From the NCBI GenBank assembly GCA_049296095.1, contig JBAQRV010000001.1, forward strand, positions 450,001-482,000: a stretch of 32,000 nt of DNA. The letters run 5' to 3'. This DNA comes from Candidatus Saccharimonadota bacterium (GTDB lineage: Bacteria; Patescibacteriota; Saccharimonadia; Saccharimonadales; Saccharimonadaceae). Position 1 is the stretch's first letter. Every line of letters starts with the position of its first letter. Below the pieces are notes generated by a model, which was given only the letters and a program-made list of their open reading frames with translations, was not told where the DNA came from and searched no databases. The translations under genes were made by a program, and so were the position numbers. Below, in pieces: positions 1,471 through 32,000 of this stretch.

Positions 1471-1695
1471 TTACTGACTGCCCGAGCCGACTTGTACTTC
1501 GACTGCTGGGTTAATCGCATTTTCATTAAAGATGGCTGGGTCAGGCTCGACAATGTCGGCATTAATCTTCTCAACGGTTTTCACCTTTACACTTTCACTC
1601 TCAGCCCCACCAAAAATTGCTTGGGTGGCAAAGAATGAAACAAGGATGCTCACCGAGGCGATAAGGACAATCATTGCTATATCGGTCTTTTTCAT
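1471..1695 (-). CDS. Small bitopic membrane protein of the pilus operon (unassigned function)
   Basis: ORF 1471..1698 begins GTG-ATG. The ATG at 1695 shares its A with the TGA of the upstream pilO-like gene (TGATG) and is preceded by AAGGTGG. One N-terminal TM helix (IAMIVLIASVSILVSFFATQAIF) is followed by an acidic ~45-aa tail. The stop is 13 nt before the pilB ATG. Confidence 0.6.
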   Translation of the reverse strand: MKKTDIAMIVLIASVSILVSFFATQAIFGGAESESVKVKTVEKINADIVEPDPAIFNENAINPAVEVQVGSGSQ

Positions 1696-3118: not shown

Positions 3119-4161
3119 AGCTTGTTCCTTCGCTCGGCCAAACCAATCACAGTCGCAAACTCAGAAGCGATTGTCATCAATTGCTGCTGGTCAGTCTGCG
3201 AGACGCTCACCTTTTGCCATGGATTAGCAATTGAAGACGGAATACCGGTCTTTGCGGTCACGTAGTCACCGAACTGTGGGACGATTGCACTGTAGCCAGA
3301 CAACAGAATGCCTCCAACTGGCGTATTCGGGTAGCGCGTCTGGAAGAACTTGATCGACTTTGTCAGCTCGACCGCAAAGTTATCAAGCGTTGATTCAATC
3401 GCGCGGTAAACTTGACCTTCCAAACGATCTGGTGCGAGACCAAATTTCAAAATGAACTGTCGGGCCTGGTCTTCTTGAACGTTTAAGTTCTGGACCGCTG
3501 CTTTAATCAGTGAGCGAATACCGGTTGGAATCGTACGAACTAAGCGCGGCGTGTCGCCAAAGGTAATTGCCAGATCAGTCGACATTTCACCGACATCGAT
3601 AATCAAACGTGCATCAGGAATACCCGATGGAAGCAACGAGCGAATCATAGCCAGTGGATCAGGTTCAGACGCAATCACATTCAAGCCCAGACCTTCGATG
3701 AACTCCAGTCGCTCTTCGGCGTAGCTATTGGCTGTACTGGCAATCAAGACCTCCTGCATCTTTGGATCATGCAAAGAAGTGCCAAGTAGTGCCCAATCTA
3801 CCTTGGCTTCATTGACTGCCATCGGAATGTATTGATCAACCTGATACTTGATAGTGCTCTTTAGTTCGGTCTCTGGCATGATTGGCACCTCAATCACTGT
3901 CGTAAACGTCTTACTCGAAGGCAGCCCAATCACAACGTTTCTTGTTTTAATGCCACTCTGCCCTACTGCAGTCATGATCACCTCGCCGAGACGGCGAAGA
4001 CTTTCAGGCGAAGAACTGTTAGCAGTCTTCTCGTCTAGAGGGGCGTACCCAAAGTGTTCCAGGCTCCAACTGTCAGGACCCGTTGAAGAAAGCTGTACCA
4101 CTCGCACAGCATTCGTTCCTATATCTAGAGCAAAGAAGTCGCCCACGCCACGTAATGCCAT
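3115..4161 (-). CDS. pilM: PilM, actin-like ATPase of the type IV pilus alignment complex
   Basis: FFALDIGTNAVRVVQLSSTG at the N-terminus, DVGEMSTDLAI and an overall actin/FtsA-like pattern. The longest ORF (to 4290) would overlap the upstream gene by 76 nt and adds a non-conserved leader. Internal starts at 4173 (MIGNMALRG) or 4161 (MALRG) are more likely. 4161 was chosen because TATAAT (4172-4177) lies 10 nt upstream of it. The start is uncertain by about 12 nt. Confidence 0.85.
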   Translation of the reverse strand: MALRGVGDFFALDIGTNAVRVVQLSSTGPDSWSLEHFGYAPLDEKTANSSSPESLRRLGEVIMTAVGQSGIKTRNVVIGLPSSKTFTTVIEVPIMPETELKSTIKYQVDQYIPMAVNEAKVDWALLGTSLHDPKMQEVLIASTANSYAEERLEFIEGLGLNVIASEPDPLAMIRSLLPSGIPDARLIIDVGEMSTDLAITFGDTPRLVRTIPTGIRSLIKAAVQNLNVQEDQARQFILKFGLAPDRLEGQVYRAIESTLDNFAVELTKSIKFFQTRYPNTPVGGILLSGYSAIVPQFGDYVTAKTGIPSSIANPWQKVSVSQTDQQQLMTIASEFATVIGLAERRNKL

Positions 4162-4214
4162 ATTGCCTATCATTATACCGAAAGCATAAGCGTAAAAGCA
4201 AGGTGATTTACTAC

Positions 4215-6137: not shown

Positions 6138-6699
6138 TCTGTAATGCCTCGATCTTACTCGTATAATATGCGCCATCACCCAGACCCTCGCGTGTCACGT
6201 CCGGATTTTCACTCAAGAATTGGGCGGTTTCTTGTGCATCCCTATCGCGGGCTAGCTCATAGTAACGAATCGCATTGGCAATATCACCCTTTGTCTCGTA
6301 AAGATAGGCGACAAAGGCGGCCGTGCTCGCAGTCGGTGCTGCCTGATCGGCTTGTAGTGCATATTCGAGTGCAGTGTCGGTTCCCGCATTTGGATCAGAC
6401 GAAGCTATCACTGCTTTGGTACTATAAAGTTCCGATTTTACTTCTCCACTTGTAGTATTCTCAATTTCTTTGTTGAGCAAACTATATGCCTCTTTGGTAT
6501 TACCTTCAGCGGCTAGTGTTTGAGCCTTTTGTGATGTTGCATTTATGACCGGTGCCTCTGTTTCCGGCTGAGTTTGACTCGCCTGTTCGACAGTGTCCTT
6601 CGGACGAAGCAAAACATAAGCCGTCACCGTACCAGCCGCGATTAATATAATGGCAATGATCACTATCAATATAGTCTTCTTCGATCGCAGTCCAGCCAC
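6130..6699 (-). CDS. N-terminally membrane-anchored TPR-like protein, first gene of the pilus operon
   Basis: GTG start at 6699. TM helix TILIVIIAIILIAAGTVTAYVLL. The C-terminal half has a TPR-like signature (AFVAYLYETKGDIANAIRYYELARDRD; EAYSLLNKEIE). A promoter-like TTGCCA-17-TATACT lies upstream. Confidence 0.65.
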   Translation of the reverse strand: MAGLRSKKTILIVIIAIILIAAGTVTAYVLLRPKDTVEQASQTQPETEAPVINATSQKAQTLAAEGNTKEAYSLLNKEIENTTSGEVKSELYSTKAVIASSDPNAGTDTALEYALQADQAAPTASTAAFVAYLYETKGDIANAIRYYELARDRDAQETAQFLSENPDVTREGLGDGAYYTSKIEALQNG

Positions 6700-15036: not shown

Positions 15037-15639
15037 TCACCTCTTATTTGGCAAGGTATCGAGTTGCTCTATGACTTTTGGAACCTTTAGGAAGTCATCA
15101 ATCAAAGTCTGGCGTAAGCTGCCGTTATACAGCGCAGCCGCCGGGTGAAATAAAGGCATAATCACAATTTTATGATCACCAAACTGAATGCGCTTGGCTT
15201 CTCCATGAACTTCCCCTATTTTCATGCCAGGCAAGAAATATTCCATACTGTGACGGCCCAAGGTGATCACAACTTTCGGGTTAATAATCTGTAGTTGTTT
15301 GAGTAAATATGGCCAAAAAGCAGCTTTTTCCTCTGGTGATGGGTCACGGTTATTCGGTGGGCGGTACTTTACGATGTTCGTGATGTACACATCTTTTCGT
15401 TCCATCCCAGCCGCAGCTAACATTTCATTAAGAAATTTTCCAGCCGCACCGACGAACGGAAGACCTTGCAGGTCCTCATTCTTGCCTGGTGCTTCACCAA
15501 TAAAAACGATGTCAGCATCAAGATTGCCATCACCCATCACAAGATTCGTCGCTTGCTCGGCCAAATCTGGACAGATATTCTTACTACGAATATCTGCCGC
15601 GATTTGATCAAGTTGAGATTGCTTGTTTTGTATAGCCAT
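15037..15639 (-). CDS. udg: Uracil-DNA glycosylase, family 4 type
   Basis: VFIGEAPGKNEDLQGLPFVGAAGKFLNEML, YITNIVKYRPPNNRDP and PLFHPAAAL are collinear with Thermus family-4 UDG as I recall it ([50 protein letters not shown]). Confidence 0.85.
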   Translation of the reverse strand: MAIQNKQSQLDQIAADIRSKNICPDLAEQATNLVMGDGNLDADIVFIGEAPGKNEDLQGLPFVGAAGKFLNEMLAAAGMERKDVYITNIVKYRPPNNRDPSPEEKAAFWPYLLKQLQIINPKVVITLGRHSMEYFLPGMKIGEVHGEAKRIQFGDHKIVIMPLFHPAAALYNGSLRQTLIDDFLKVPKVIEQLDTLPNKR

Positions 15640-18578: not shown

Positions 18579-18614
18579 GGGTTCAGGACAGCTATTTGTT
18601 TTGCAGCGTAAGCA

Positions 18615-18643
18615 TTGACTTTTCATCTGTTAAATGCTATTAT
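18615..18643 (+). promoter_or_regulatory. Candidate promoter of the VirB6-like gene, with the -10 only 9 nt from the ATG
   Basis: TTGACT (18615-18620), 17 nt, TATTAT (18638-18643), then tgcaacgat and ATG (18653). No Shine-Dalgarno. Confidence 0.6.
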
Positions 18644-18652
18644 TGCAACGAT

Positions 18653-21337
18653 ATGGAACTTGCGAGGTCCACTTCGCGCGGAGGGCTATCCGTACGAAGC
18701 GTTTTTACTTTTGCCCTGGCCGCGATCTTTGCGGCGATCTTATGGGTAACCTTTGCCAGCCCGGCAACCCACGCAGCTGATGCCAGCTGGAGTGGATCTG
18801 CTATTTTGTACGAAGGAAATAAGTACCTTGCGACAAACGATAAAGAAATCCTCAAAGATGTCGGGCTTGAGTCAGCCAGTAAGGTATATGTCTTTGTCGA
18901 TCCCGCACAAGCAGATGGGAACCCCAGTTCAAGCAATGGCACATCGCCGCCCACCGCTCGCAAGATACGCTTGATCTACTTTGACGCAAATACTGATTCT
19001 TCTACCGCCACAGAGGCCACGTACAAGGATCTTACTTACGTTGGTCAGGGAAATTATACGAACCCTTCGGCAATAAAGCCGATTACCTTCTCACAAACTG
19101 GCGCAGAGGGCACAACTTCCTGTGATGTCGATACAGGACTTGGCTGGATTATCTGTCCCGTCACCACTACCCTCGCAACCGCCATGGATGCGATATATGA
19201 CATTCTCACCGGATTTCTTGAAGTCCGCCCAGTGGAAACTGGCCAGGACAATGCATTGTACCGAGCCTGGAAAATTATGCAGGGATTTGCGAATATCGCG
19301 TTCGTCATTGTCTTCTTGATTATTATTTACTCGCAGCTGACAGGTGCAGGTATTAGCAGCTACGGTCTCAAAAAACTACTGCCACGTTTGATCATTGCCG
19401 CACTGCTTGTCAATTTGTCTTACTTTATCAGTTCGATTGCGATCGATATCTCGAACATTCTGGGGTATTCTTTGCAAGATATATTTATTTCGATGCGCAA
19501 TAGCCTGGTCGGCACCGAAGGAAACAGTTGGGACGAAGCTGGGATAACCAGCTGGGAGAGCCTCGCAGAATTTGGACTTTCTGGAGGCACTTTACTTGCA
19601 GCGGGTGGTACCGCCGCCTTTATCGCTGTGGCTGACTTTGGTCCTACGGTGATCTTCCTTATCCTACCCGCACTAGTAGTTGCCCTCATTGCAGTACTCG
19701 TCGCACTAGTCGTCCTGGCAGCACGTCAAGCAATTATCATCATTCTCGTCATTCTGTCGCCACTAGCATTTGTCGCTTATTTGCTCCCAAATACTGAGAA
19801 GTGGTTCGGTAAATGGCGCGATACTTTCTTCACCATGCTCTTCCTTTTCCCGGCTTTCTCAGTTGTCTTTGGTGGATCGCAACTTGCCGCAACAGCCATT
19901 ATCCAGACAGCCGACTCGATTAACCTCGTTATTTTAGGAATGCTGGTGCAGGTTGCGCCGCTGTTTATCACTCCCCTGCTAATTAAGCTTGGTGGCGGAT
20001 TATTGGGACGGATTGCCGGGCTGGTTAATGACCCTAATAAGGGTATTATTGATCGTACGCGGAAATTTGCAGAAGATCGAACGCAGAATGCGAGGGCACG
20101 CCGTATCGCAGATCCTAAGGGTTGGCAGTTAATGCGAAGAAATGCTAGATGGCGCTATGATCGCCAAAAAGACCGCGAACAATGGCGTGCGAAGCACACT
20201 GAACGTGCTGATGCCAACTGGGCAGGTCGTCCACGAGCTACCCGTATAGACAATTACGGTCGCGAATCAGGAGATATAAAGACCCTGGCCGAGACAAATT
20301 CCGAAACACGATACAATAATGCAAAACTTGTTCAAAATTCCCGACTTCAATTATTAGACGTTGATCTTCAAAATGCCAAAGGCACACTTGCAAATGCTCA
20401 TCACGATGTAGAATTACAATATAAGAATCTCAAATCGAGAGATACTGGTAATGGATTCAATATTATCCCAGCTCATCTTGCCTCTCGAGCGATGATTGCC
20501 CGCCACAATGCACAACATTCAAGCGCTATCACTCGTGCAATTCACGAAGCCGAAAACATGCAACAACAGGAATACGCGAAGGACTTACAACAATCTGAAG
20601 CACTCCGTCGTTTTGCTGGAGGTATTAACCCACACGGTGCCGACTCAGCACTGGCTGCAGCTATTAACACTGTCCGTGAAGCGTACGGTAAGTCCGTCAC
20701 TGAAGCCCGAGCGATTAATAAGCACTTCGAACTATCTTCAGGTGAACGACAGCGACACGGTCGTGGAGAAACTATTAGGAAGATCAAGGATGGTGCAGTG
20801 CGTATATTTACCCCCGAAAGTACATTCACCCGTGAAGCTGCGATCGAAGATCAAATAACTACCGGAACCGTTGAAGAGGTGGAAGAGTTCGTTCGGCTAT
20901 CAGGTACTCCAGAATTCGCTGACTTCCGATCGACTATCGCTGAAACACTTGCTAAGAATGGTGGAATGACTGCAAAAGCTCTCCATATGGGGGGCCAGTC
21001 AATCGACGATATCGCACAGGGTCGAGTTGTTGGCGAAGAGGGTCTCGACTGGATTACGGCACGAGCAATTGCTAAAGGTAAACTGTCTGAAAAGGATGTT
21101 GCAGGGCTTGATGCCAAGGCAGTTGAACGATTCCGAGCAATCGTCACTTCTAACCGTGGGCGCGCAAACCTCTCTGCCACCGAACGGGCAATTATGGACC
21201 AACGTATTGGTGAACTATCTAAGGTTGTCCGAGAGGCTATGACTGGTGATGAAAAGACTAATATTAAGCCGAGTGCTGTCGATGATCTGCTGGCAATTGC
21301 ACGCCTCACCGATGAGAACTTTGACCCTGACGCATAG
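18653..21337 (+). CDS. Large polytopic membrane protein, TrbL/VirB6-like (TcpH-like architecture): secreted N-domain, about 7 TM helices, and a ~430-aa charged cytoplasmic C-domain
   Basis: The start at 18653 (MELARSTSRGG) is preferred because the ORF-track start at 18596 lies upstream of the predicted -35. Signal peptide ending ATHA-AD. TM block with ILSPLAFVAYLLPNTEKWFGKWRDTFFTMLFLFPAF, which resembles the TrbL/VirB6 signature region by eye. The C-terminal Arg/Glu/Ala-rich region is probably helical. The coding call is solid. The family assignment is tentative. Confidence 0.55.
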   Translation: MELARSTSRGGLSVRSVFTFALAAIFAAILWVTFASPATHAADASWSGSAILYEGNKYLATNDKEILKDVGLESASKVYVFVDPAQADGNPSSSNGTSPPTARKIRLIYFDANTDSSTATEATYKDLTYVGQGNYTNPSAIKPITFSQTGAEGTTSCDVDTGLGWIICPVTTTLATAMDAIYDILTGFLEVRPVETGQDNALYRAWKIMQGFANIAFVIVFLIIIYSQLTGAGISSYGLKKLLPRLIIAALLVNLSYFISSIAIDISNILGYSLQDIFISMRNSLVGTEGNSWDEAGITSWESLAEFGLSGGTLLAAGGTAAFIAVADFGPTVIFLILPALVVALIAVLVALVVLAARQAIIIILVILSPLAFVAYLLPNTEKWFGKWRDTFFTMLFLFPAFSVVFGGSQLAATAIIQTADSINLVILGMLVQVAPLFITPLLIKLGGGLLGRIAGLVNDPNKGIIDRTRKFAEDRTQNARARRIADPKGWQLMRRNARWRYDRQKDREQWRAKHTERADANWAGRPRATRIDNYGRESGDIKTLAETNSETRYNNAKLVQNSRLQLLDVDLQNAKGTLANAHHDVELQYKNLKSRDTGNGFNIIPAHLASRAMIARHNAQHSSAITRAIHEAENMQQQEYAKDLQQSEALRRFAGGINPHGADSALAAAINTVREAYGKSVTEARAINKHFELSSGERQRHGRGETIRKIKDGAVRIFTPESTFTREAAIEDQITTGTVEEVEEFVRLSGTPEFADFRSTIAETLAKNGGMTAKALHMGGQSIDDIAQGRVVGEEGLDWITARAIAKGKLSEKDVAGLDAKAVERFRAIVTSNRGRANLSATERAIMDQRIGELSKVVREAMTGDEKTNIKPSAVDDLLAIARLTDENFDPDA

Positions 21338-24098: not shown

Positions 24099-24127
24099 AA
24101 AATAGACCGCATCTCGCGGTCTATTTT
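24099..24127. terminator. Bidirectional rho-independent terminator shared by rpsT (+) and holA (-)
   Basis: AAAATAGACCGC-atctc-GCGGTCTATTTT is a perfect 12-bp stem with an A-tract on one side and a T-tract on the other. The holA stop codon (24126-24128) sits at the base of the stem. Confidence 0.8.
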
Positions 24128-25028
24128 ATTTATTCATAGAAAGTAGCGTCTTCTCGATCAACAACCACGGCTCCCCTCGCGATACCTTCATATCGCCATC
24201 AGTTTTTGCAAAAGCTTTCAGAATCTTCATTGTTCCTGACTTTCCCAATCTCTCGCCGTGACGTGCCAACTTAGATGCAACATAGGGATGAATCGCGAAA
24301 TCCTTCGAGGGATTGTCGCTAGCCGCCGCATTGGCCACCGCTGCCAGTTGGAATGCCTGGGATGTCAGGAGTGCAAATAACTTATATGGTTCTTCAGTCA
24401 GCTCGAGCGTACGAATCATTTCGTGCACTTCTTTTACTCGCCCATCAAGTGCCGTTTCAAACAATTGAAAGACATTCTCGGATGGACTGGCATCGATTGT
24501 TACTACCACCGCCTCGTGGGTTATCTCATCCAAAAGAGACAGCTTTTCCAATGCCTGTGCCAGTTGCCATTGATCAAGTCCGACTCGTTCCACAATCAGG
24601 TGTGCTAGTTTTTTATCCAAAGTAATTCCTAGTGATGCACCTCGCTTCTCTACCCAGTTTTCGGCCAGTGACCGATCTCGGTCAGTCCAGGCAGCAAATT
24701 CTTTCACTTCGGCAAACTTCTTTAATTCTTTATAAGCTGTTGTTCGTTTGTCAGGCTTCTCATCGACAAGAACAAGTTGGATATCATCTGATAGTCGCGG
24801 CAGCCATTCGGAAAGCTTTTCCCAGACAGCTGAATTTTGAGAGAGCCCCTTAATAATCACTAAGCGCTTGTCGGCAAACAGCGTACTTCCCATTAAAAGA
24901 TCGGGTAGATTTTTTAGTTCAAGCATCGAGCCATCGATTTTCTCAGCCCGACCATCAAAATCAGCAACTAATGAGCTGAGTGCCTCATTAATCTCAAAAC
25001 TATTGTCTCCTGTTAGCAATGTAATCAT
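24126..25028 (-). CDS. holA: DNA polymerase III delta subunit
   Basis: MITLLTGDNSFEINEALSSL, LFADKRLVIIKGL, and 300 aa with a helical C-terminal half, which is the typical HolA pattern. By-eye assignment. Confidence 0.8.
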   Translation of the reverse strand: MITLLTGDNSFEINEALSSLVADFDGRAEKIDGSMLELKNLPDLLMGSTLFADKRLVIIKGLSQNSAVWEKLSEWLPRLSDDIQLVLVDEKPDKRTTAYKELKKFAEVKEFAAWTDRDRSLAENWVEKRGASLGITLDKKLAHLIVERVGLDQWQLAQALEKLSLLDEITHEAVVVTIDASPSENVFQLFETALDGRVKEVHEMIRTLELTEEPYKLFALLTSQAFQLAAVANAAASDNPSKDFAIHPYVASKLARHGERLGKSGTMKILKAFAKTDGDMKVSRGEPWLLIEKTLLSMNK

Positions 25029-25043
25029 TACTCTCAGTATAGC

Positions 25044-25910
25044 TTAAAGTGTCTGACAGAAGGGGCAGATATGCGTTCCCCGCCCAGCGACCCGCAGCTT
25101 CTCGATCGTCGTCCCACAGCGCGGACACGGCAGACCCTCACGTCGAAAGGCACGCGCAAAATCCATATAACTTCCCTTTTTACCCTCAGCGTTAACGTAG
25201 GTGTGGTTAGACGAGCCACCCTTTTCAATTGCCAGATTCATGACAGTACGCAGCTCTTCATAGAGTGCCTTGAACTCCCCTGCGGTAATCGACGATACTA
25301 ATCGTTGTGGATGGATCTTTGCACCCCACAGGGCTTCATCGGCATAAATATTCCCCACACCGGCGATCACCGACTGGTCAAGCAACGCTGCTTTTATAGT
25401 GGTCCTAGCGCGGCGCGTAAAATGTTCGGCAAATTGCTCGGCTGTAAAATCAGCCTCTAACGGCTCTGGTCCGACCTTTTTCATAAAATCGATGTTTGGA
25501 ATTTCTATTGTGGGTAATAATTTTACCCAGCCAAACTTCCTTTGATCATTAAAGAATAATTTAGAACCGTCTTTAAACGTCAGCGTCACGCGCGTTGATT
25601 TGTCGGGTAACTCATTAATGAGGCTATCATTCGGATGACCCGCACCAAATCGACTATCACCCACAAATACAAGCTGCCCCGTCATCTTGAGATGAATCAA
25701 GAGCGAATATCCTGTTGAGAGATCAATGATCAGCACTTTCGCGCGGCGGCGAACCTCTTTGATGGACGCGCCTAATAGAAACTCGCCGACATCAGCGACA
25801 GCATTTGGGAATCCTTTCAGAGTGTCGTGTTCTTCGGCTACGACCACTCGGCCAATAATCAGCTCTGAGAGTCCGCGGCGAACGGTTTCAACTTCGGGTA
25901 ATTCAGGCAT
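25044..25910 (-). CDS. mutM: Formamidopyrimidine-DNA glycosylase (Fpg/MutM)
   Basis: MPELPEVETVRRGL (catalytic Pro2/Glu3), an H2TH region, and a C-terminal zinc finger CPRCGTTIEKLRVAGRGTHICPFCQ. Confidence 0.95.
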   Translation of the reverse strand: MPELPEVETVRRGLSELIIGRVVVAEEHDTLKGFPNAVADVGEFLLGASIKEVRRRAKVLIIDLSTGYSLLIHLKMTGQLVFVGDSRFGAGHPNDSLINELPDKSTRVTLTFKDGSKLFFNDQRKFGWVKLLPTIEIPNIDFMKKVGPEPLEADFTAEQFAEHFTRRARTTIKAALLDQSVIAGVGNIYADEALWGAKIHPQRLVSSITAGEFKALYEELRTVMNLAIEKGGSSNHTYVNAEGKKGSYMDFARAFRREGLPCPRCGTTIEKLRVAGRGTHICPFCQTL

Positions 25911-25916
25911 AATTTC

Positions 25917-26522
25917 CTACAATGAAACTTTTTTGATCAATTTGTCAGAACCGGGAATTTGATTCGTAAACAATTCGGTAAGTTGGGTCGCGCTCGCTTT
26001 GAGAGACCCGCTAGAACCCTGACAGGTCGAGGTCCATAGCGTTTTAACCGAGTTACCGTTTTCAAGGACGCTAAATTGATAGACCCGACCAGTCGCACAG
26101 ATGCCACGAATGTCATTCTTGTCACCGGCAAGCTCAGTCCCCTTCACGAGGTTCGCCTTGTCGAGCGCATAGACAAACTCTTCATAAGCGGCGACGCTAT
26201 TACCCAACGTCGTCCTATCAACCACTGTATCAAGATAGCCTGTAAAAGTACTTAACTGACGACTACTTGCTGAAATATCAATCTTGTACGAATGGAACTC
26301 TTCGTCAGCCACAATCGGGCCGCGAACCGTCATACTAACGCTATGGCTCGCACTCGTATTGAGCAAAGCCTCTTTACTCACGTCAGCGACAGCAGCTGGT
26401 GCGGTTGAAGTGCCAGAAAAGAAAACGACTCGAGCAAGCGAGACCAAGGCAGCGACAGCAATAATGATAATAACGATAACGAGAATGATTGGAAGGATTC
26501 GTGAAGTTCTGTAATTAACCAT
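25917..26522 (-). CDS. Hypothetical N-terminally anchored extracytoplasmic protein
   Basis: TM helix ILPIILVIVIIIIAVAALVSLARVVFF followed by a ~160-aa domain with 2 Cys. It is tightly packed between the HAD gene and fpg, with AAGG-type Shine-Dalgarno upstream. No recognisable family. Confidence 0.6.
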   Translation of the reverse strand: MVNYRTSRILPIILVIVIIIIAVAALVSLARVVFFSGTSTAPAAVADVSKEALLNTSASHSVSMTVRGPIVADEEFHSYKIDISASSRQLSTFTGYLDTVVDRTTLGNSVAAYEEFVYALDKANLVKGTELAGDKNDIRGICATGRVYQFSVLENGNSVKTLWTSTCQGSSGSLKASATQLTELFTNQIPGSDKLIKKVSL

Positions 26523-26531
26523 ACCTTAACC

Positions 26532-27122
26532 TTAGTCCGTTTGGGTTGCTCTGTCAATCTGTTGAAGCGCGCGTAAGTCTTTGATGAATTCCGCTGTTGT
26601 CGTAAACAGTATTGGCCGCATACCCACCTTCTCGGCACCTTCACAAAATTCCGGAACATCATCAGTAAAAATACATTCCTCAGGCTTTACGCCGAGTTTC
26701 TCGATAACTATTTCGTAAGCTTCCTTATTTGGTTTGGACACTCCCATGTCATATGACAAACAGATCACATCAAATAGTTGTAATTGTTCTGGAGTAAGAA
26801 GCTGGTCGAGACGATTACCACTGACATTCGATAGCATCCCGATTTTGTAATCATTTAATTCATCTTTTATAAAATCAAGCAGTTCCTCATTCGGAGGATT
26901 ATTCTCAACATGGCGTCGTGTATCCTCAAATGACATACCGACAAGTTCAGCCAAACCTTCGATGAAATCCTGGTGACTTATAAACCCATTGCCTGAGGCT
27001 TTTAGTAGGTCTCGCGCCTGTTGGAGTTTGGCAGGATCCGACGCTAAATACTTGTCGCGAAACGGATGCCAACCCTCCTGTGCGAGCACACCAAAACAAT
27101 CAAAGACGATTGCCTTAATCAC
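26532..27122 (-). CDS. HAD-superfamily hydrolase
   Basis: GTG start at 27122 overlaps the polA stop by 1 nt (TAGTG). Motif I is IVFDCFGVL (nucleophile Asp present; the second Asp position is Phe, as in the DxYGTL haloacid-dehalogenase-like subgroup). MLSNVS is motif II. Late FTDD is motif IV. Confidence 0.8.
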   Translation of the reverse strand: MIKAIVFDCFGVLAQEGWHPFRDKYLASDPAKLQQARDLLKASGNGFISHQDFIEGLAELVGMSFEDTRRHVENNPPNEELLDFIKDELNDYKIGMLSNVSGNRLDQLLTPEQLQLFDVICLSYDMGVSKPNKEAYEIVIEKLGVKPEECIFTDDVPEFCEGAEKVGMRPILFTTTAEFIKDLRALQQIDRATQTD

Positions 27123-29656
27123 TAAAGTTCACCCCAGTTTTTTCCGACACTGACATCAACTTTCAATTTAATGCCTAGCTCTGGAGCAATGTTTTCCATG
27201 GTCGTTTTAAGAATCTCGGAAACTTTTTCAGCATTTTCGATTGGACATTCTACTAAAATACTATCGTGGATCTGCAGTACCTGATCACCCAAGTCCCCTA
27301 GCTTTTCATCAACCTGGAGCATGGCGAGTTTCATAAGATCCGCCTCGGTTCCCTGAATCGGCATATTAGCCGCAGCCCGCTCAGCGCCAGCACGGACCAT
27401 ATAGTTTGAACTATTGAGGTCAGGAGTCGGACGACGGCGACCAAAATAGGTTTCGACGTAGCCTTCGGTGCGACCTTTGTTCAGTGTCTGATCAATAAAT
27501 TTACGGATTGGAGCACGGAGTTCAAAATACTGGTCAATAAAATCCTTGGCTTGCCCAAATGACATACCAGTATTGGCCGCCAGACCGTGTGGGCTCATGC
27601 CGTAGAGAACGCCAAAGTTAATCACCTTTGCAGCACGCCGTTGGCTTTTGGTGACTTCGTCCATCGGAACACCATACACCTCGCTTGCGGTCTTAGTGTG
27701 AATATCAACATCACCATTAAAATCATTGATCAGTTTGTCATCCCCTGCCAAGACCGCCGCCAAGCGCAACTCGAATTGCGAATAGTCGGCGCTGACCAGT
27801 ACCTTATCGCCATCTGCAATAAAGGCTTCCCGAATCTCACGTCCTAATTCGGTACGAATCGGAATATTTTGCAGATTTGGATTCGTACTACTTAGTCGTC
27901 CTGTCGCAGCGACGTCTTGGTTGAAAGTAGTATGTAGCCGATTATGCTCATCAACCAAAAGTGGCAATGAATCAGTATACGTATTTTTTAGCTTTGCCAG
28001 CTCACGGGTCTGCTCGATCAACTCAATGATTGGATGCTGGCCCTTGAGCTTATCGAGTTCGGACTGTCCGGTACTGTAGCCCGTCTTCCCCTTCTTGATA
28101 CCAGCTGTCGGGAGTTGTAACTTTGTGAATAACACTTCCGAAAGCTGCGCTGGGCTACCAATATTAAATTCGTGGCCCGCCATTGTATACATTTCTTGTT
28201 CGAGTCGAGCATGCTCGGCCCCTAATTCATCACTCATCTTCTTGAGCTTTTTAGGATCGATCAGGACACCGCGGCGTTCCATCTCAAATAGCGTATACGT
28301 GAGCGGGAAATCAAGCTCATAGGCGATCTTTGCCAACTTTGGTTCCTTATCGAAGTAATCTTTTTGTTGGTCATAGACTTCCCATAGGCCGCCTAGCAGT
28401 ACTGCTGGTTCGGGTATCTCATCCTGACCAATCAAGGCCGCGGCTGAACGATCCCGACGCAGTGGATCAATCAGAAAAGCGCCCTGGCGAATATCATGGA
28501 CATCAGTGAAATGGACCGAAACACCACGAGCCGACAATGCATGATACACCGCCTTGACGTCATAGCTCACTACCCTTGTCATCTCAATAGCTCGCCAGAT
28601 ACCTTTATCGATCTTTTCAATTAGAGCACTTGCGACCGTTTCTTGATCGGTCGACAGCCAAACAGTCTCACCAACCACCTCAAGTAGCACTGGTCCATCA
28701 ATCGTCAGCGTTTTTGGCCACTCAACTTTCTCGAGTTCGAGAAACTCTTTCATCTCTTCATCAATATCAACAACCTTGTCGCCAATCTTCATATGTTCGG
28801 GGAGTCGAGCGATGAGTGATCGAAACTCATATTTATGGAGTACTTCGAGGATCTTATCGACATCGGTATGAGCAATGTCTGTCTCTTTCCAATCAATCTT
28901 GATCGGTGCATCAGTAAAGATGCGTGCTAACTTCTGACTCATATAGGCATTATCCTTGCCTTCTATCAGATACTTCTGACGTGACGGTGTAATCTCATCA
29001 ATATGCTCATAGATACCGTCGAGCGTATCAAACTCATTGAGAAGCGCCTGGGCGGCCTTGTCGCCAATCATACGGACACCAGGAATATTATCGCTCTTAT
29101 CCCCTACCAGAGCTTTGTAATCAACAAATTGATCAACCCGAATACCATACTTATTTTTAAATGCCTCGGCATCATAGAGTGTCAGGTCGCTCCCGCCTGT
29201 CTTGGTGATGTAGACAGAGGTTTTTGGAGTAATCAGCTGCAGCAGGTCGTAGTCACCTGTCACAACGCACATCTCCACATCGGCCGCATTTGCTTCGAGC
29301 GCAAAGGTGCCAATAATGTCATCAGCTTCGTAATTCTCAAGTTCGTAAAGTGGCCAGTCGAAAGCCTGAAGTACTTCACGCAGGATAGGTAATTGCGCAT
29401 AGAAGTCTTCGGGCGGCTTTACCCTACCTGCCTTGTATTCAGGATAGATCTCTAAGCGCTTGGCGGTACTCGTCCCACGAATGTCCCAAGCAATCGCAAT
29501 ATAGTCAGGTTGGATTTTCTTGATAATTTCGATGGCAATCGACGCAAAGCCCATCACACCACCCGTCGGCGTCCCATCAGATGTCGCCAAACTCGGCATC
29601 GCATAATACCCACGGTAAAATACGGACATTCCATCGATTACAGCCAGCCGTTTCAT
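27122..29656 (-). CDS. polA: DNA polymerase I (5'-nuclease domain, apparently degenerate 3'-5' exonuclease domain, family A polymerase domain)
   Basis: N-terminus AVIDGMSVFYRGYYA, plus GDKSDNIPGV (5' nuclease). Polymerase motifs are LVSADYSQFELRLAA (motif A), RRAAKVINFGVLYGMS (motif B) and QIHDSILVE (motif C). A canonical DxE ExoI motif is not evident. Confidence 0.97.
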   Translation of the reverse strand: MKRLAVIDGMSVFYRGYYAMPSLATSDGTPTGGVMGFASIAIEIIKKIQPDYIAIAWDIRGTSTAKRLEIYPEYKAGRVKPPEDFYAQLPILREVLQAFDWPLYELENYEADDIIGTFALEANAADVEMCVVTGDYDLLQLITPKTSVYITKTGGSDLTLYDAEAFKNKYGIRVDQFVDYKALVGDKSDNIPGVRMIGDKAAQALLNEFDTLDGIYEHIDEITPSRQKYLIEGKDNAYMSQKLARIFTDAPIKIDWKETDIAHTDVDKILEVLHKYEFRSLIARLPEHMKIGDKVVDIDEEMKEFLELEKVEWPKTLTIDGPVLLEVVGETVWLSTDQETVASALIEKIDKGIWRAIEMTRVVSYDVKAVYHALSARGVSVHFTDVHDIRQGAFLIDPLRRDRSAAALIGQDEIPEPAVLLGGLWEVYDQQKDYFDKEPKLAKIAYELDFPLTYTLFEMERRGVLIDPKKLKKMSDELGAEHARLEQEMYTMAGHEFNIGSPAQLSEVLFTKLQLPTAGIKKGKTGYSTGQSELDKLKGQHPIIELIEQTRELAKLKNTYTDSLPLLVDEHNRLHTTFNQDVAATGRLSSTNPNLQNIPIRTELGREIREAFIADGDKVLVSADYSQFELRLAAVLAGDDKLINDFNGDVDIHTKTASEVYGVPMDEVTKSQRRAAKVINFGVLYGMSPHGLAANTGMSFGQAKDFIDQYFELRAPIRKFIDQTLNKGRTEGYVETYFGRRRPTPDLNSSNYMVRAGAERAAANMPIQGTEADLMKLAMLQVDEKLGDLGDQVLQIHDSILVECPIENAEKVSEILKTTMENIAPELGIKLKVDVSVGKNWGEL

Positions 29657-29677
29657 GCTACTAGTATAACAGCTACG

Positions 29678-30100
29678 CTAAGCGGCTACGTCCTCTTCGC
29701 CGACTTCCTCAATCTCAATACCGAGTTCTTTTAATAATGCTCTTAGTGGCATCGGTCCATAGCCTGCCCTAAACCCATAATGGACGTCTCTACGATTGAG
29801 CCTGTCAGCAAGGCACTCTGGCCTTACCTCACAGTTATCGCAAATTGCTTGCGCGTCACTGTATGAGTATCCTTTTTCTGCAAAAAACAGTTCTGGGTCT
29901 GTCTGAGCACAGAGACTAAGAGCCTGCCATGCTAATGTTTCACCCTGATTATTCAATACCTCTGTTGGATGAAAGGCTTCAAACTGACCGTTTGTGATTC
30001 TTAGAATCTCACGACTCACGTCTACATCGACCCCTTTGCGTTTTGTTGTCTCTATAATAAGATCATCTTTAACTTCAAGTTGGTCTTTTCGCAGTCTCAT
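29678..30100 (-). CDS. WhiB-like (Wbl) [4Fe-4S]-type transcription factor with an N-terminal extension
   Basis: WQALSLCAQTDPELFFAEKGYSYSDAQAICDNCEVRPECLADRL fits the Wbl pattern W-x3-A-x-C ... DPExFF ... C-x2-C-x5-C with all four Cys present. YGFRAGYG sits where the Wbl G[VI]WGG turn is. The start at 30100 (MRLRKDQ) is preferred because GGGAGGA lies 8 nt upstream, whereas the ORF-track ATG at 30109 overlaps that Shine-Dalgarno. Confidence 0.75.
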   Translation of the reverse strand: MRLRKDQLEVKDDLIIETTKRKGVDVDVSREILRITNGQFEAFHPTEVLNNQGETLAWQALSLCAQTDPELFFAEKGYSYSDAQAICDNCEVRPECLADRLNRRDVHYGFRAGYGPMPLRALLKELGIEIEEVGEEDVAA

Positions 30101-30126
30101 CAAGCACATCCTCCCGAATTTTCTTT

Positions 30127-30155
30127 ATCATAAATCAAACTTGTCGTCTCGGCAA
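30127..30155 (-). promoter_or_regulatory. Candidate promoter of the WhiB-like/polA unit
   Basis: Minus strand: TTGCCG (30155-30150), 17 nt, TATGAT (30132-30127). An imperfect palindrome CTTGtCG-tct-CGgCAAG (30141-30157) overlaps the -35. Confidence 0.5.
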
Positions 30156-30172
30156 GAAATATACAGTGTATT

Positions 30173-30181
30173 TGTTACAAT
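30173..30181 (+). promoter_or_regulatory. Extended -10 (TGtTACAAT) 6 nt upstream of the ATG of the 116-aa gene
   Basis: TGtTACAAT at 30173-30181, then ggtcgt and ATG (30188). No Shine-Dalgarno and no good -35. Confidence 0.45.
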
Positions 30182-30187
30182 GGTCGT

Positions 30188-30538
30188 ATGCCCCATCAAA
30201 ATAACCTCAAAATTCTCGTCTTTATAGGTGAAGGCTCTGAGCATATTATCGAATACCTGACAAAAAAAGGCTTTCCAAAAGTATCACTCGAGAACATGCC
30301 CTCCCAAATTGAACATCTTTCCGAGGCGGGACAACATCGAATTATAACAAATGAGGTTCCCGACCTTAGTTTGTACGAAATGCTCCAAAACCAGTTCCCA
30401 GGTGAGATACAGCTTGTCGCAGTTGCATCAGAAAATAAGATGCATGAAGATGAGTTTATAAAACACGCCGATTACTTTGTTGACAATGATCCAACAAAGA
30501 TTGATGAGCTTCTCCAAAAGCTCGATTTCACTCTCTAG
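30188..30538 (+). CDS. Hypothetical 116-aa protein; by eye a shortened nucleotide-kinase-like fold lacking a P-loop
   Basis: KILVFIGEGSEHIIEYLTKKGFPKVSL sits where the neighbouring kinase has EIVGVAGTNASGKDTLGALRQSLQNAKFVSL. GEGSEH replaces G-x4-GK[ST]. The C-terminal ADYFVDNDPTKIDELLQKL matches ADIKIVNDYDTVEAYEAFLKQ in the kinase. The alignment is weak and by eye only. Confidence 0.5.
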   Translation: MPHQNNLKILVFIGEGSEHIIEYLTKKGFPKVSLENMPSQIEHLSEAGQHRIITNEVPDLSLYEMLQNQFPGEIQLVAVASENKMHEDEFIKHADYFVDNDPTKIDELLQKLDFTL

Positions 30539-31131: not shown

Positions 31132-32000
31132 CTAATTAAGATATTCGTGAAGTTTCTTTGAATCCTTGTGCTTTCGAAGCTTCGCCAAGGCCTTGGCTTC
31201 GATCTGACGAATGCGCTCACGAGTGACGGCGAATTCCTGTCCGACTTCTTCCAAAGTGTGACTCTTGCCGTTCTCTAGGCCAAAGCGCATCTTGATGATC
31301 TTTTGCTCACGGTCAGATAACGTCGAGAGGATTGATTGAACTTGCTCTTTCAATAGTTGAGAGGCAGCCGACTCTTCCGGTGTCGCACTATCTTCATCTT
31401 CAATAAAGTCACGCAGCACTGAATCTTCGTCATCGCCATCACGGCCAACACCAGCGTCGAGTGACGTAATGTCCTGCTTGATTTTCATAACATATTCAAC
31501 TTTTTCAGGTTCCATCTCGAGTTCTTTACCGAGCTCTTCAATGGTCGGTTCACGGTTCAACTCTTGAGTCATACGACGCTGTGTACGGAGTAATTTGTTA
31601 ATCGTTTCCACCATGTGAACTGGAATACGAATGGTACGCGCCTGGTCAGCGATTGCACGAGTAATTGCCTGACGGATCCACCAGGTAGCATAGGTCGAGA
31701 ACTTGAATCCTTTTTCAGGATCAAACTTTTCAACTGCACGAAGCAAGCCAGTGTTACCTTCTTGAATAAGGTCAAGAAAATCGAGACCGCGACCACTGTA
31801 ACGCTTGGCAATCGAGACAACCAGACGCATGTTGGCCTCCGCCATTTTGTCTTTGGAACGCTTGTCGCCTTCGACGACCTTCTTAGCAAGGGCAAGTTCC
31901 TCTTCTGCGTTTAGCAAAGGAATTTTACCTATTTCGCGCAAATACAAACGGACGCTGTCGTCGCTGGCATCGTCGAAATACTGGTCCTGGCTGAGAAGAT
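31132..32000 (-). CDS. rpoD: Primary RNA polymerase sigma factor (RpoD/SigA); N-terminus lies beyond the right window edge
   Basis: The ORF-track start at 31947 is a TTG inside the conserved region 1.2. Hand translation upstream continues in frame with no stop to the edge: [29 protein letters not shown]. Region 2 has [30 protein letters not shown]. Region 4 has [27 protein letters not shown]. Confidence 0.95.

What the first reader, a model, noticed from the sequence alone, without database searches (positions are those of the whole stretch)
29678..30100. WhiB-like (Wbl) Fe-S regulator in a non-actinobacterial context, heading a polA repair/replication string and ~1 kb from rpoD
The sequence shows W-x3-A-x-C, DPELFF and C-x2-C-x5-C with all four Cys, plus a degenerate G[VI]WGG turn (YGFRAGYG). 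It also has an ~55-aa N-terminal extension and an acidic C-terminus.

Established knowledge: Wbl proteins are considered essentially restricted to Actinobacteria and their phages, and act by binding region 4 of the primary sigma factor.

Context here:
- The rest of the window looks CPR/Saccharibacteria-like, a group whose known hosts are Actinobacteria. Horizontal acquisition from a host or its phage is a plausible inference.
- The gene has its own promoter (TTGCCG-17-TATGAT).
- It is followed on the same strand by polA, a HAD hydrolase, a membrane protein, fpg and holA.
- rpoD lies 1 kb away. The rpoD C-terminus reads [17 protein letters not shown] rather than the widespread KLRHPSRS, so any Wbl-sigma contact may differ from the actinobacterial one.
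Basis: partly seen in the sequence, partly recalled or inferred. Interest (0 to 1): 0.75.

Follow-up and report, generated by a model that had tools for sequence, protein, structure and literature searches.

The report
Resident WhiB-like regulator in Saccharibacteria
The gene really does encode a WhiB-like iron-sulfur regulator in a Saccharibacterium; it is a fast-evolving copy of a WhiB-like gene that many Saccharibacteria keep just upstream of polA, although the literature says the family exists only in Actinobacteria and their phages.

Summary
Observation confirmed. Window 29678..30100 (-) encodes a 140-aa protein that matches Pfam Whib (46 bits, cut-off 23.6). It has all four Cys ligands, W58 and DPELFF. 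NCBI already labels it 'WhiB family' in a Candidatus Microsaccharimonas MAG.

It is not a recent transfer from a host or phage.
- Its GC and GC3 match the genome.
- A sister species carries a syntenic orthologue.
- A Wbl gene sits in the same slot, 6-56 bp upstream of polA, in 28 distinct Saccharibacterial loci: 22 of 80 polA-anchored metagenome loci and 3 of 6 evaluable GTDB loci.
- No phage or actinobacterial protein shares its N-terminal extension.

This copy is atypical.
- It is 42% identical to its orthologue, whereas the neighbouring genes are 60-99% identical.
- The GIWGG Trp is replaced (GFRAG).
- The C-terminus is acidic instead of basic.
- It has new conserved terminal motifs.

Every Saccharibacterial primary sigma examined carries K-H where Mtb SigA has the H516-P517 pair that every Wbl:sigma complex characterised so far docks on.

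Best reading: a resident, divergent [4Fe-4S] Wbl heads the polA-fpg-holA operon and acts on RNA polymerase through a re-wired or different interface. Cluster binding, partner and targets are untested.

I found no paper describing Wbl proteins in Patescibacteria.

The parts
29678..30100 (-). Wbl coding sequence, 140 aa plus stop. An alternative upstream ATG at 30109 would give 143 aa.
   Evidence: ORF; Pfam Whib 46 bits; identical to NCBI protein P0001, 'WhiB family transcriptional regulator [Candidatus Microsaccharimonas sp.]'.
29936..30100 (-). N-terminal extension, residues 1-55, containing the conserved block LRITNGQFEA.
   Evidence: Shared only with the orthologue P0002 among 1.84 billion representatives. 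dN = 0.64. AF2 gives weak beta-hairpins at low confidence.
29726..29935 (-). Wbl core, residues 56-125. It holds W58 (AP1), C64, DPELF72F73 (AP2-3), C87, C90, C96, the degenerate turn G109-F-R111-A-G113 (AP4 Trp replaced by Arg), and helix 4.
   Evidence: Translation; alignments to WhiB, WhiB1 and WhiB4 structures; aromatic-patch definition from PMC13013590.
29681..29725 (-). Acidic C-terminal tail (LGIEIEEVGEEDVAA) where canonical Wbl proteins have a basic, Arg-rich tail.
   Evidence: Sequence. The LK.LGIE motif is shared with P0002.
30110..30115 (-). Shine-Dalgarno GGGAGG, 9 nt upstream of the ATG at 30100.
   Evidence: Sequence. A purine-rich SD sits at the equivalent place in L001.
30127..30155 (-). 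Sigma-70-like promoter TTGCCG-17-TATGAT, in the 87-bp divergent intergenic region shared with p116.
   Evidence: Consensus scan, 9 of 12. The TATGAT -10 is conserved in L001.
27122..29656 (-). polA. It starts 21 bp after the Wbl stop, and no terminator was found in between.
   Evidence: Pfam DNA_pol_A plus 5'-3' exonuclease domains; no terminator.
24126..27122 (-). Rest of the putative operon: HAD hydrolase (26532..27122), single-TM 201-aa protein (25917..26522), fpg (25044..25910), holA (24126..25028). Gaps between genes are at most 15 bp.
   Evidence: Pfam; hydropathy; ORF coordinates.
30188..30538 (+). p116, divergently transcribed from the Wbl gene. It is a short, P-loop-less relative of the 190-216-aa P-loop kinase-like protein that flanks the slot in other Saccharibacteria.
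   Evidence: No Pfam hit. tblastn matches to longer homologues that carry GLAGAGKTT or GLAGSGKSS.
31132..32000 (-). Primary sigma factor rpoD, truncated by the window end. Its region 4 ends [16 protein letters not shown].
   Evidence: Pfam Sigma70 r1.2, r2, r3, r4. The full-length protein is 341 aa in L002.
31168..31173 (-). Codons for K-H in sigma region 4. These are the positions equivalent to Mtb SigA H516-P517, the Wbl docking pair.
   Evidence: Translation; ungapped phmmer alignment of query 1-73 to Mtb SigA 455-527; role of H516-P517 from PMC13013590.

Best explanation
The gene is a long-resident, rapidly diverging member of a Saccharibacterial lineage of WhiB-like proteins. It is the first gene of the polA-HAD-p201-fpg-holA operon.

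Shown:
- It is a Wbl domain with all four cluster-ligating Cys and three of the four aromatic-patch residues (W58, F72, F73).
- It is under purifying selection but evolves several-fold faster than its neighbours.
- Wbl genes of several architectures occupy the same polA-upstream slot in many Saccharibacteria.

Inferred:
- The protein binds a [4Fe-4S] cluster that is sensitive to O2 or NO.
- As holo-protein it docks on RNA polymerase, most likely on region 4 of the cell's own primary sigma through the cluster-pocket face (W58, F72, F73).
- It thereby tunes transcription, plausibly including its own promoter and hence the downstream DNA-repair and replication genes. fpg and polA deal with oxidative base damage.

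The contact cannot be the canonical one. Sigma carries K-H instead of H516-P517, and this protein has lost both the turn Trp that packs on that pair and the basic DNA-contacting tail. It therefore probably works as a sigma-bound modulator without direct DNA contact, or through a partner recruited by its new N- and C-terminal motifs.
For: Family membership:
- Pfam Whib 46 bits against a 23.6 cut-off.
- Best PDB sequence hits are WhiB 57 bits, WhiB4 38, WhiB1 26, WhiB7 21.
- Four Cys, W58 and F72-F73 are present. That satisfies the aromatic-patch criterion met by 98.7% of 995 Wbl proteins.

Residency:
- The syntenic orthologue P0002 lies in dnaG-rpoD-kinase-p116-Wbl-polA-HAD-p201-fpg.
- Wbl lies directly upstream of polA in L007, L011, L012, L015 and L016 and in 22 of 80 polA-anchored metagenome loci.
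- GC and GC3 equal the host genome.
- Several of these contigs are 73-700 kb long.

Still functional:
- The ORF is intact in both species although dS is saturated.
- pN (0.35) is below pS (0.73), and dN of the core (0.29) is below dN of the termini (about 0.63).
- The blocks LRITNGQFEA, LAWQALSLCAQTDPE and LGIE are conserved.
- The -10 hexamer is conserved, and a Shine-Dalgarno sits at the equivalent position.

Operon: 21-bp gap to polA, no terminator, and gaps of at most 15 bp further downstream.

Altered interface:
- All 13 distinct full-length Saccharibacterial primary sigmas end KLRKHKD[SA]KKL.
- K-H aligns to H516-P517.
- The AP4 Trp is replaced in 9 of the 28 Saccharibacterial Wbl proteins.
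Against: - No experiment or co-fold supports sigma binding. H516A abolishes binding of every Mtb Wbl tested, and the equivalent residue here is Lys.
- The AF2 model of the protein is low-confidence (pLDDT 59) and found no structural match.
- The high dN, the lost turn Trp and the lost basic tail are also what relaxed constraint would produce.
- Autoregulation and a link to oxidative-damage repair rest only on gene order.
- Whether the genome encodes Fe-S assembly genes or WhiA could not be checked from the window.
Confidence: 0.55

Rival explanations
1. Recent horizontal acquisition from an actinobacterial host or an actinophage. The gene would be a newly arrived foreign Wbl.
For: - The Wbl family is otherwise reported only from Actinobacteria and actinophages.
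- Known Saccharibacterial hosts are Actinobacteria (established knowledge).
- 694 actinophage records give domain-level tblastn hits.
- Canonical Saccharibacterial Wbl domains are about 80% identical to Micrococcales WhiB proteins. That fits a transfer at some point in the past.
Against: - GC 0.45 and GC3 0.38 match the flanking polA (0.47 and 0.49). All 28 Saccharibacterial Wbl genes have GC3 of 0.27-0.59.
- A syntenic orthologue exists in a sister species whose dS is saturated.
- The same slot is occupied across Saccharibacteria with PolA as low as 63% identical.
- No phage or actinobacterial protein shares the N-terminal extension: only 2 of 1.84 billion representatives have it, and no viral contig carries ITNGQFE.
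- Best phage identity in annotated genomes is at most 46%, over the domain only.
Confidence: 0.05
2. A decaying relic. The Wbl gene lost its function in this lineage and is drifting. It survives only because it sits at the head of an essential operon.
For: - dN is 0.47, against 0.07-0.30 for the protein-coding neighbours and 0.008 for rpoD.
- The GIWGG Trp, the FPEKGGST loop and the SERERR basic helix are lost.
- The slot is empty in 18 related loci, so the gene is dispensable in some lineages.
- The AF2 model is low-confidence.
Against: - The ORF is intact and about the same length in two species with saturated synonymous divergence.
- pN is less than half of pS, and the core is more constrained than the termini.
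- All four Cys and AP1-3 are retained.
- New 10-aa and 15-aa blocks are perfectly conserved.
- The -10 hexamer is retained, and a Shine-Dalgarno sits at the equivalent position.
Confidence: 0.15
3. A host-directed mimic. The Saccharibacterial Wbl is delivered to, or acts on, the actinobacterial host and binds the host's SigA (which has H516-P517), as actinophage Wbl proteins do, rather than the cell's own sigma.
For: - The cell's own sigma lacks the H-P docking pair in every locus.
- The slot shows turnover of Wbl architectures among close relatives: four types among loci with PolA at least 82% identical. This copy also evolves fast. Both are typical of interaction genes.
- Phage Wbl proteins bind host sigmaA4.
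- Canonical Saccharibacterial forms keep about 80% identity to actinobacterial WhiB despite ameliorated codon usage.
Against: - There is no signal peptide or recognisable secretion signal in the sequence (read directly).
- The gene is embedded in a housekeeping operon.
- This particular copy has lost the AP4 Trp that contacts H516-P517, so it is the poorest candidate for binding an actinobacterial sigma.
- The host of this organism is unknown.
Confidence: 0.07
4. An Fe-S or thiol protein that does not act on sigma, such as a redox buffer, a disulfide reductase-type activity or a partner of another protein. The new terminal motifs would mediate the real interaction.
For: - The canonical sigma docking residues are missing on both sides.
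- New conserved N- and C-terminal motifs are present.
- Sigma-70 paralogues rather than Wbl genes occupy the same slot in 8 loci. Alternative partners are therefore conceivable in the wider family.
Against: - All seven Mtb Wbl proteins bind sigmaA4, as do the Streptomyces WhiB and the phage Wbl proteins characterised.
- AP1-3, which form the docking pocket, are retained here.
Confidence: 0.15

Closest known systems
Class II Wbl: Streptomyces WhiB / Mycobacterium WhiB2 / Corynebacterium WhcD (PDB 8dy7_H)
   Same: - It is the best solved-structure sequence match (57 bits, E = 1.7e-14).
- Both have a C1-C2 spacing of 22 and the LCAQTDPE-FF block.
- Both have four Cys.
- Both are small proteins.
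   Different: - The FPEKGGST loop, the ERFGIWGG turn (the Trp is Arg here) and the SERERRRLKK basic helix are replaced.
- It has a 55-aa N-terminal extension and an acidic tail.
- It sits in a phylum whose sigma has K-H instead of H-P.
- Whether the WhiA partner is present was not determined.
Canonical Saccharibacterial Wbl proteins in the same polA-upstream slot. They are annotated in databases but I found no paper on them. Example: 'transcription factor WhiB' of Candidatus Saccharibacteria bacterium GW2011_GWC2_48_9, P0272.
   Same: - Same genomic slot between the p116-type kinase gene and polA, on the same strand, 6-56 bp from polA.
- Same phylum.
- Same K-H sigma.
- GC matches the genome.
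   Different: - Most keep G[VI]WGG and a basic tail.
- Their lengths range from 84 aa to 472 aa, with unrelated N-terminal extensions.
- The canonical forms appear conserved: the domains of L020 and L021 are about 88% identical by eye. The window copy is 42% identical to its orthologue.
Actinophage Wbl proteins (Mycobacterium and Gordonia phages)
   Same: - They share the Wbl domain, with 34-46% identity over 49-72% of the query.
- They are small accessory Wbl proteins found outside core actinobacterial chromosomes.
   Different: - They match over the domain only; none has the ITNGQFE extension.
- Phage Wbl proteins act on a host sigmaA4 that carries H516-P517.
- This gene is chromosomal, syntenic and compositionally native.
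Actinobacterial Wbl variants with G[VI]R[AG]G turns, for example Micromonospora haikouensis WP_357749399 (P0008)
   Same: - They are the best non-family hits: 66-69 bits and about 50% identity over the domain.
- They share the CLADAL / CLADRL helix, the Y-G-[VF]-R-[GA]-G turn and RALLK.
   Different: - They have no N-terminal extension and no acidic tail.
- They come from high-GC actinobacteria.
- Their scores are only a few bits above those of Saccharibacterial Wbl proteins such as P0015 (62 bits), so no donor can be inferred.

Membership tests
Wbl (WhiB-like) family, Pfam PF02467 | Match to the family HMM above the curated gathering score | tested here: met
   46 bits against a 23.6 cut-off, E = 7.8e-12, profile positions 1-56 of 65. 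NCBIfam gave no hit.
Wbl (WhiB-like) family, Pfam PF02467 | Four invariant Cys, C-x(n)-C-x2-C-x5-C, that ligate the [4Fe-4S] cluster | tested here: met
   C64, C87, C90 and C96 are present, and they are conserved in the orthologue P0002.
Wbl (WhiB-like) family, Pfam PF02467 | Aromatic patch: at least two aromatic residues among AP1-4, including at least one of AP2-3 (criterion of PMC13013590) | tested here: met
   AP1 is W58 and AP2-3 are F72-F73, from the alignment to WhiB1 W3, F17 and F18. AP4 is Arg111, with Phe110 at the -1 position.
Wbl (WhiB-like) family, Pfam PF02467 | Gly-rich G[V/I]WGG beta-turn. This motif is conserved but is not part of the family definition. | tested here: not met
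   The turn reads GFRAG here and GFAGG in the orthologue. Non-Trp turns also occur in 9 of 28 Saccharibacterial Wbl proteins and in a named actinobacterial Wbl, P0008 (GVRGG).
Wbl (WhiB-like) family, Pfam PF02467 | Positively charged C-terminal helix or tail implicated in DNA binding | tested here: not met
   The tail after helix 4 is LGIEIEEVGEEDVAA, with a net negative charge. Canonical members end in RERRKLKK-type sequences.
Wbl (WhiB-like) family, Pfam PF02467 | Binds an O2/NO-sensitive [4Fe-4S] cluster | not testable with these tools
   This needs anaerobic purification and UV-vis or EPR spectroscopy. Only the ligands are visible in the sequence.
Wbl (WhiB-like) family, Pfam PF02467 | Docks on region 4 of the primary sigma factor, centred on the H516-P517 pair (Mtb numbering) | tested here: not met
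   The partner residues are K-H in the window's sigma and in all 13 distinct full-length Saccharibacterial primary sigmas examined.
Wbl (WhiB-like) family, Pfam PF02467 | Taxonomic restriction to Actinobacteria and actinobacteriophages, as stated in reviews | tested here: not met
   The gene lies in Candidatus Microsaccharimonas contigs of up to 710 kb with Saccharibacterial synteny.
Class II Wbl (WhiB / WhiB2 / WhcD) | Conserved class II sequence: LCAQTDPE-FFPEKGGST...ERFGIWGG-SERERR | tested here: inconclusive
   The first half is kept (LCAQTDPELFF, C1-C2 spacing of 22). The second half is replaced. The neighbour-joining tree puts it on a long branch without resolution.
Class II Wbl (WhiB / WhiB2 / WhcD) | Works together with WhiA | not tested
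   No WhiA is encoded in the 32-kb window (Pfam).

The most novel reading that the evidence does not exclude
Saccharibacteria maintain an old, compositionally native Wbl cassette at the head of the polA operon, and it turns over rapidly. At least four architectures occur among close relatives, and in other lineages the slot holds sigma paralogues or is empty. The cassette works against a primary sigma that lacks the H-P docking pair.

Two readings follow:
- A second, re-wired Wbl:sigma interface has evolved outside Actinobacteria.
- Or these proteins are aimed at the sigma factor of the actinobacterial host.
Probability: 0.3. Interest if true: 0.8.

Novelty: new variant of a known kind. Interest (0 to 1): 0.62.

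Why it matters
Reviews and a 2026 structural survey state that Wbl proteins occur only in Actinobacteria and their phages, and that all of them dock on the H516-P517 pair of sigmaA region 4.

This work shows three things:
- A non-actinobacterial phylum, whose known members live on Actinobacteria, carries resident Wbl genes at one conserved locus.
- Those genes have ameliorated codon usage.
- They face a sigma factor in which that docking pair is K-H.

That gives a natural experiment on which parts of the Wbl:sigma interface are essential. It may also identify a candidate regulator of replication and repair genes in organisms with very few transcription factors. The rapid turnover of this slot could bear on how episymbionts interact with their hosts.

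The individual gene in the window is only one, rather degenerate, member of this set. NCBI already labels it WhiB family automatically. The value therefore lies in the pattern, not in the annotation.

Tried and rejected
1. AF2 of the window protein with a 40-sequence alignment gave pLDDT 59. The helices agree with a Wbl fold, but Foldseek against the PDB found nothing with E below 3. The model is unusable for fold-level claims.

3. dN/dS against the orthologue was not usable because synonymous sites are saturated (pS about 0.7). Only dN and the relation pN < pS are used.

4. A neighbour-joining tree of 180 Wbl domains put the Saccharibacterial sequences in several places, with the window gene on a long branch. 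My GARP/FYMINK composition labels for the unnamed proteins proved unreliable: P0149, labelled 'hi', resembles the Saccharibacterial L061 sequence. No donor clade or monophyly can be claimed.

5. A viral-contig scan looked for a phage carrying the same architecture. It returned only domain-level hits.

6. NCBIfam gave no match.

7. An apparent similarity between the N-terminal extension and those of the L027/L029/L032 group was not supported by alignment.

8. AF2 of the long-extension Saccharibacterial Wbl family gave a confident all-alpha N-domain, but Foldseek found no PDB match.

9. Five literature searches combined WhiB or WhiB-like with Saccharibacteria, Patescibacteria, candidate phyla radiation or TM7, and a sixth combined WhiA with Saccharibacteria. 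None found a report of Wbl proteins in this phylum. Subscription-only papers were not searched.
Full report
**1. The observation**

The finding's coordinates (29678-30100) correspond to a minus-strand ORF.
- The ORF listing reports it from the first ATG (29678..30109, 143 aa).
- The Shine-Dalgarno GGGAGG (30115..30110) directly abuts that ATG and lies 9 nt upstream of the second ATG at 30100. The 140-aa product is therefore the likely one.
- That product is identical to a protein NCBI calls 'MAG: WhiB family transcriptional regulator [Candidatus Microsaccharimonas sp.]' (P0001). It is encoded on GCA_049286885.1, in contigs of up to 710 kb.

The family assignment is solid.
- Pfam Whib (PF02467) matches at E = 7.8e-12 and 46 bits, against a gathering score of 23.6.
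- The best solved-structure sequence match is Streptomyces WhiB (8dy7_H, 57 bits). WhiB4 (38), WhiB1 (26) and WhiB7 (21) follow.

- In 140-aa numbering the residues are W58, C64, DPELF72F73, C87-x2-C90-x5-C96, and the turn G109-F-R111-A-G113.
- There is an N-terminal extension of about 55 aa and the tail EIEEVGEEDVAA.

The context is also as described.
- The promoter-like TTGCCG-17-TATGAT is found by the scan, and no terminator lies between the gene and polA.
- The downstream genes are polA, a HAD hydrolase, a single-TM 201-aa protein, fpg and holA.
- rpoD ends [16 protein letters not shown].

**2. It is not a singleton**

An exhaustive phmmer search of 1.84 billion representative proteins gave 3750 Wbl-domain hits. 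Only one other cluster (P0002, 145 aa) also matches across the N-terminal extension.

P0002 lies on a contig with the same gene order: dnaG-rpoD-kinase-(p116)-Wbl-polA-HAD-p201-fpg.

Identity between the two genomes differs sharply by gene:

| Protein | Identity |
|---|---|
| RpoD | 99% |
| PolA | 89% |
| kinase | 88% |
| Fpg | 85% |
| p201 | 77% |
| p116 | 74% |
| HAD | 60% |
| Wbl | 42% |

Nei-Gojobori estimates show saturated synonymous sites (pS about 0.7). The non-synonymous distances are:

| Gene or region | dN |
|---|---|
| Wbl, whole gene | 0.47 |
| Wbl N-terminal extension | 0.64 |
| Wbl core | 0.29 |
| Wbl tail | 0.62 |
| polA | 0.066 |
| kinase | 0.085 |
| fpg | 0.11 |
| rpoD | 0.008 |

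pN remains below half of pS. The four Cys, the block LAWQALSLCAQTDPE, the block LRITNGQFEA and the motif LK.LGIE are all conserved. The gene is therefore constrained but fast-evolving. It is not a pseudogene.

**3. A Wbl slot across Saccharibacteria**

I anchored a GTDB scan on the neighbouring AAA_18 kinase. It returned eight loci, all labelled Saccharibacteria or Microsaccharimonas. I anchored a metagenome scan on the PolA N-terminus.

A Wbl HMM that I built from the hits found Wbl ORFs as follows:
- In L007, L011 and L012, which is 3 of the 6 evaluable GTDB loci.
- In 22 of the 80 metagenome loci. They are always on the polA strand, and 21 of the 22 end 6-56 bp before the polA start.
- Two further top hits of the exhaustive search, P0015 and P0023, proved to be in the same position.

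That makes 28 distinct Saccharibacterial Wbl genes in this slot.

Their host contigs look Saccharibacterial.
- RpoD is 81-100% identical to the window's.
- PolA identity goes down to 63%.
- Several contigs are 73-700 kb long.

All 28 genes have GC and GC3 like their own genome (GC3 of 0.27-0.59). GC3 in high-G+C actinobacteria is typically far higher (established knowledge). None of them is therefore a recent import.

One of them is annotated at NCBI as 'transcription factor WhiB [Candidatus Saccharibacteria bacterium GW2011_GWC2_48_9]'.

The phage collection and IMG/VR gave only domain-level matches. None had the N-terminal motif.

**4. The slot is variable**

Among relatives with PolA at least 82% identical to the window's, the slot holds four different Wbl architectures:
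- The window/L001 type, 140-145 aa.
- An approximately 95-aa protein with WhiB1-like C1-C2 spacing (L019).
- Proteins of about 280 aa with a long N-terminal domain and a canonical WhiB2-like domain (L020 and L021, which are P0169 and P0173).
- A 472-aa protein with five HTH-like repeats and a canonical C-terminal Wbl domain (L007, L022).

Elsewhere the slot differs again:
- It is empty (41-96 bp) in 18 loci.
- It holds a sigma-70 paralogue directly upstream of polA in 8 loci.
- It holds an unrelated protein of 210-230 aa in a clade whose PolA is about 58% identical.

The rpoD...polA synteny exists with or without a Wbl. Proximity to rpoD is therefore not evidence of a functional link.

**5. 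What is unusual about this copy and its partner**

The 2026 survey of Wbl:sigma complexes defines four aromatic-patch residues, AP1-4, corresponding to WhiB1 W3, F17, F18 and W60. It shows that every Wbl examined docks on the H516-P517 pair of sigmaA region 4, and that H516A abolishes binding (PMC13013590).

On the Wbl side:
- AP1-3 are present (W58, F72, F73).
- AP4 is Arg here and Ala in the orthologue.
- Across the 28 Saccharibacterial Wbl proteins, AP4 is Trp in 19 and R, A, F, L or Y in 9.

On the sigma side:
- The window's region 4 aligns without gaps to Mtb SigA 455-527. That puts Lys at position 516 and His at 517.
- All 13 distinct full-length primary sigmas recovered end KLRKHKD[SA]KKL, whether or not a Wbl is present.
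- The sigma paralogues in the slot do not have H-P either.

The window protein also lacks the Arg-rich C-terminal helix that is linked to DNA binding in WhiB1 (PMC6282962). It ends in an acidic tail instead.

**6. Mechanism**

Shown: family membership, the cluster ligands, retention of the pocket residues, operon-like spacing, a -10 hexamer conserved in the sister species with a Shine-Dalgarno at the equivalent position, purifying selection, and residency.

Inferred:
- The protein is a [4Fe-4S] protein.
- As holo-form it associates with RNA polymerase, most likely with its own sigma region 4 through the W58/F72/F73 pocket face.
- It modulates transcription, possibly including its own promoter and thereby polA, fpg and holA.

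The canonical H-P/Trp contact is absent on both sides and the basic tail is gone. I therefore expect either a re-wired interface, with the neighbouring His63 as an obvious candidate, or a new partner recruited by the conserved terminal motifs.

I put 0.55 on this overall picture. Membership of the Wbl family itself is close to certain.

The rivals are:
- Recent HGT (0.05), contradicted by composition and synteny.
- A decaying relic (0.15).
- A host-directed mimic of host WhiB (0.07).
- An Fe-S protein that does not act on sigma (0.15).

**7. Comparison and novelty**

The protein works most like a class II Wbl stripped of its DNA-contacting tail. It is a member of PF02467 by HMM, Cys ligands and aromatic patch. 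It fails the G[V/I]WGG, basic-tail, sigma H-P and taxonomic expectations.

Reviews from 2018 and 2026 state that Wbl proteins are exclusive to Actinobacteria and actinophages. Five searches combining WhiB or WhiB-like with Saccharibacteria, Patescibacteria, CPR or TM7, plus one combining WhiA with Saccharibacteria, found no description of Wbl proteins in this phylum. Automatic database annotations do exist.

I rate it a new variant of a known kind. The interest lies in three things: the conserved, fast-turning-over slot; the K-H sigma; and the contradiction of a stated family boundary. It does not lie in the single gene's annotation.

**8. Limits**

- There is no experimental evidence for cluster binding, partner or targets, and no co-fold.
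- The AF2 model of the protein is poor.
- The domain tree is unresolved. Single versus repeated acquisition, and the donor, remain open.
- The prevalence figures come from the loci most similar to the window's PolA and kinase. They are not an unbiased survey.

Noticed in passing
Slot between the p116-type gene and polA: window 29657-30187; compare L007 7013-8820, L009 7016-7113, L016 3111-6765, L063 and L072 just upstream of position 5001: The short interval upstream of polA is a variable slot across Saccharibacteria. It holds Wbl genes of at least four architectures, a sigma-70 paralogue directly upstream of polA (8 loci), unrelated proteins of 210-420 aa, or nothing (18 loci). A regulator heads the polA operon in many lineages, but not in all.
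   Followed up: partly
L007 7389-8807 (+); also L022 1796-3196: A 472-aa protein in a Candidatus Microsaccharimonas MAG. It has five tandem repeats of about 47 aa that look like helix-turn-helix units (for example STVTGLARLMGHDAKWIHRRL), followed by a canonical C-terminal Wbl domain with GIWGG and a basic tail. Pfam sees only the Whib domain.
   Followed up: partly
P0015 family (alignment A6; includes the Wbl proteins of L020 and L021), residues about 30-145 of P0015: Saccharibacterial Wbl proteins of 246-342 aa share an N-terminal all-alpha domain. AF2 predicts it at pLDDT 90-97, but it has no Pfam hit and no Foldseek PDB match with E below 3.
   Followed up: partly
window 30188-30538 (+): The 116-aa protein divergent from the Wbl gene appears to be a truncated relative of a 190-216-aa P-loop kinase-like protein found at the same place in other Saccharibacteria. 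It lacks the P-loop: GEGSEHI replaces GLAGAGKTT or GLAGSGKSS. It has no Pfam hit.
   Followed up: no
window 29681-29686 (C-terminal Ala-Ala of the Wbl); P0003-P0156: 47 of the 156 best Wbl hits to this protein end in -AA, as does the window protein (-VAA). Only 8 of 115 hits to the canonical P0015 do so. The non-Wbl slot proteins in L083 and L096 also end in -IAA. From memory of Streptomyces ClgR and PopR, a C-terminal Ala-Ala can act as a Clp degron. The orthologue P0002 does not end this way.
   Followed up: no
L016 194-4340 (also L017, L018); L014 7277-9211; L010 7990-9297: Some Saccharibacteria carry two or three sigma-70-family paralogues clustered between rpoD and polA, next to the Wbl or in its place. 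None has the H-P pair at the region 4 C-terminus.
   Followed up: no
window 18596-21337 (+): A 913-aa ORF has no Pfam match at E of 0.01 or better. The precomputed annotation of the cut-off 894-residue product at this position in L002 lists only a weak TrbL_3 hit.
   Followed up: no
window 1695-6699 (-): A type IV pilus assembly cluster. It contains PilM (3115-4290), a weak T2SSM_b-like protein (1695-2387) and three proteins without Pfam hits, one of them 654 aa long.
   Followed up: no
window 15037-15639 (-), 25044-25910 (-), 27122-29656 (-): Three base-excision-repair genes lie within this 32 kb of a very small genome: a UDG-superfamily glycosylase, fpg and polA. The latter two are in the Wbl-headed operon.
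   Followed up: no
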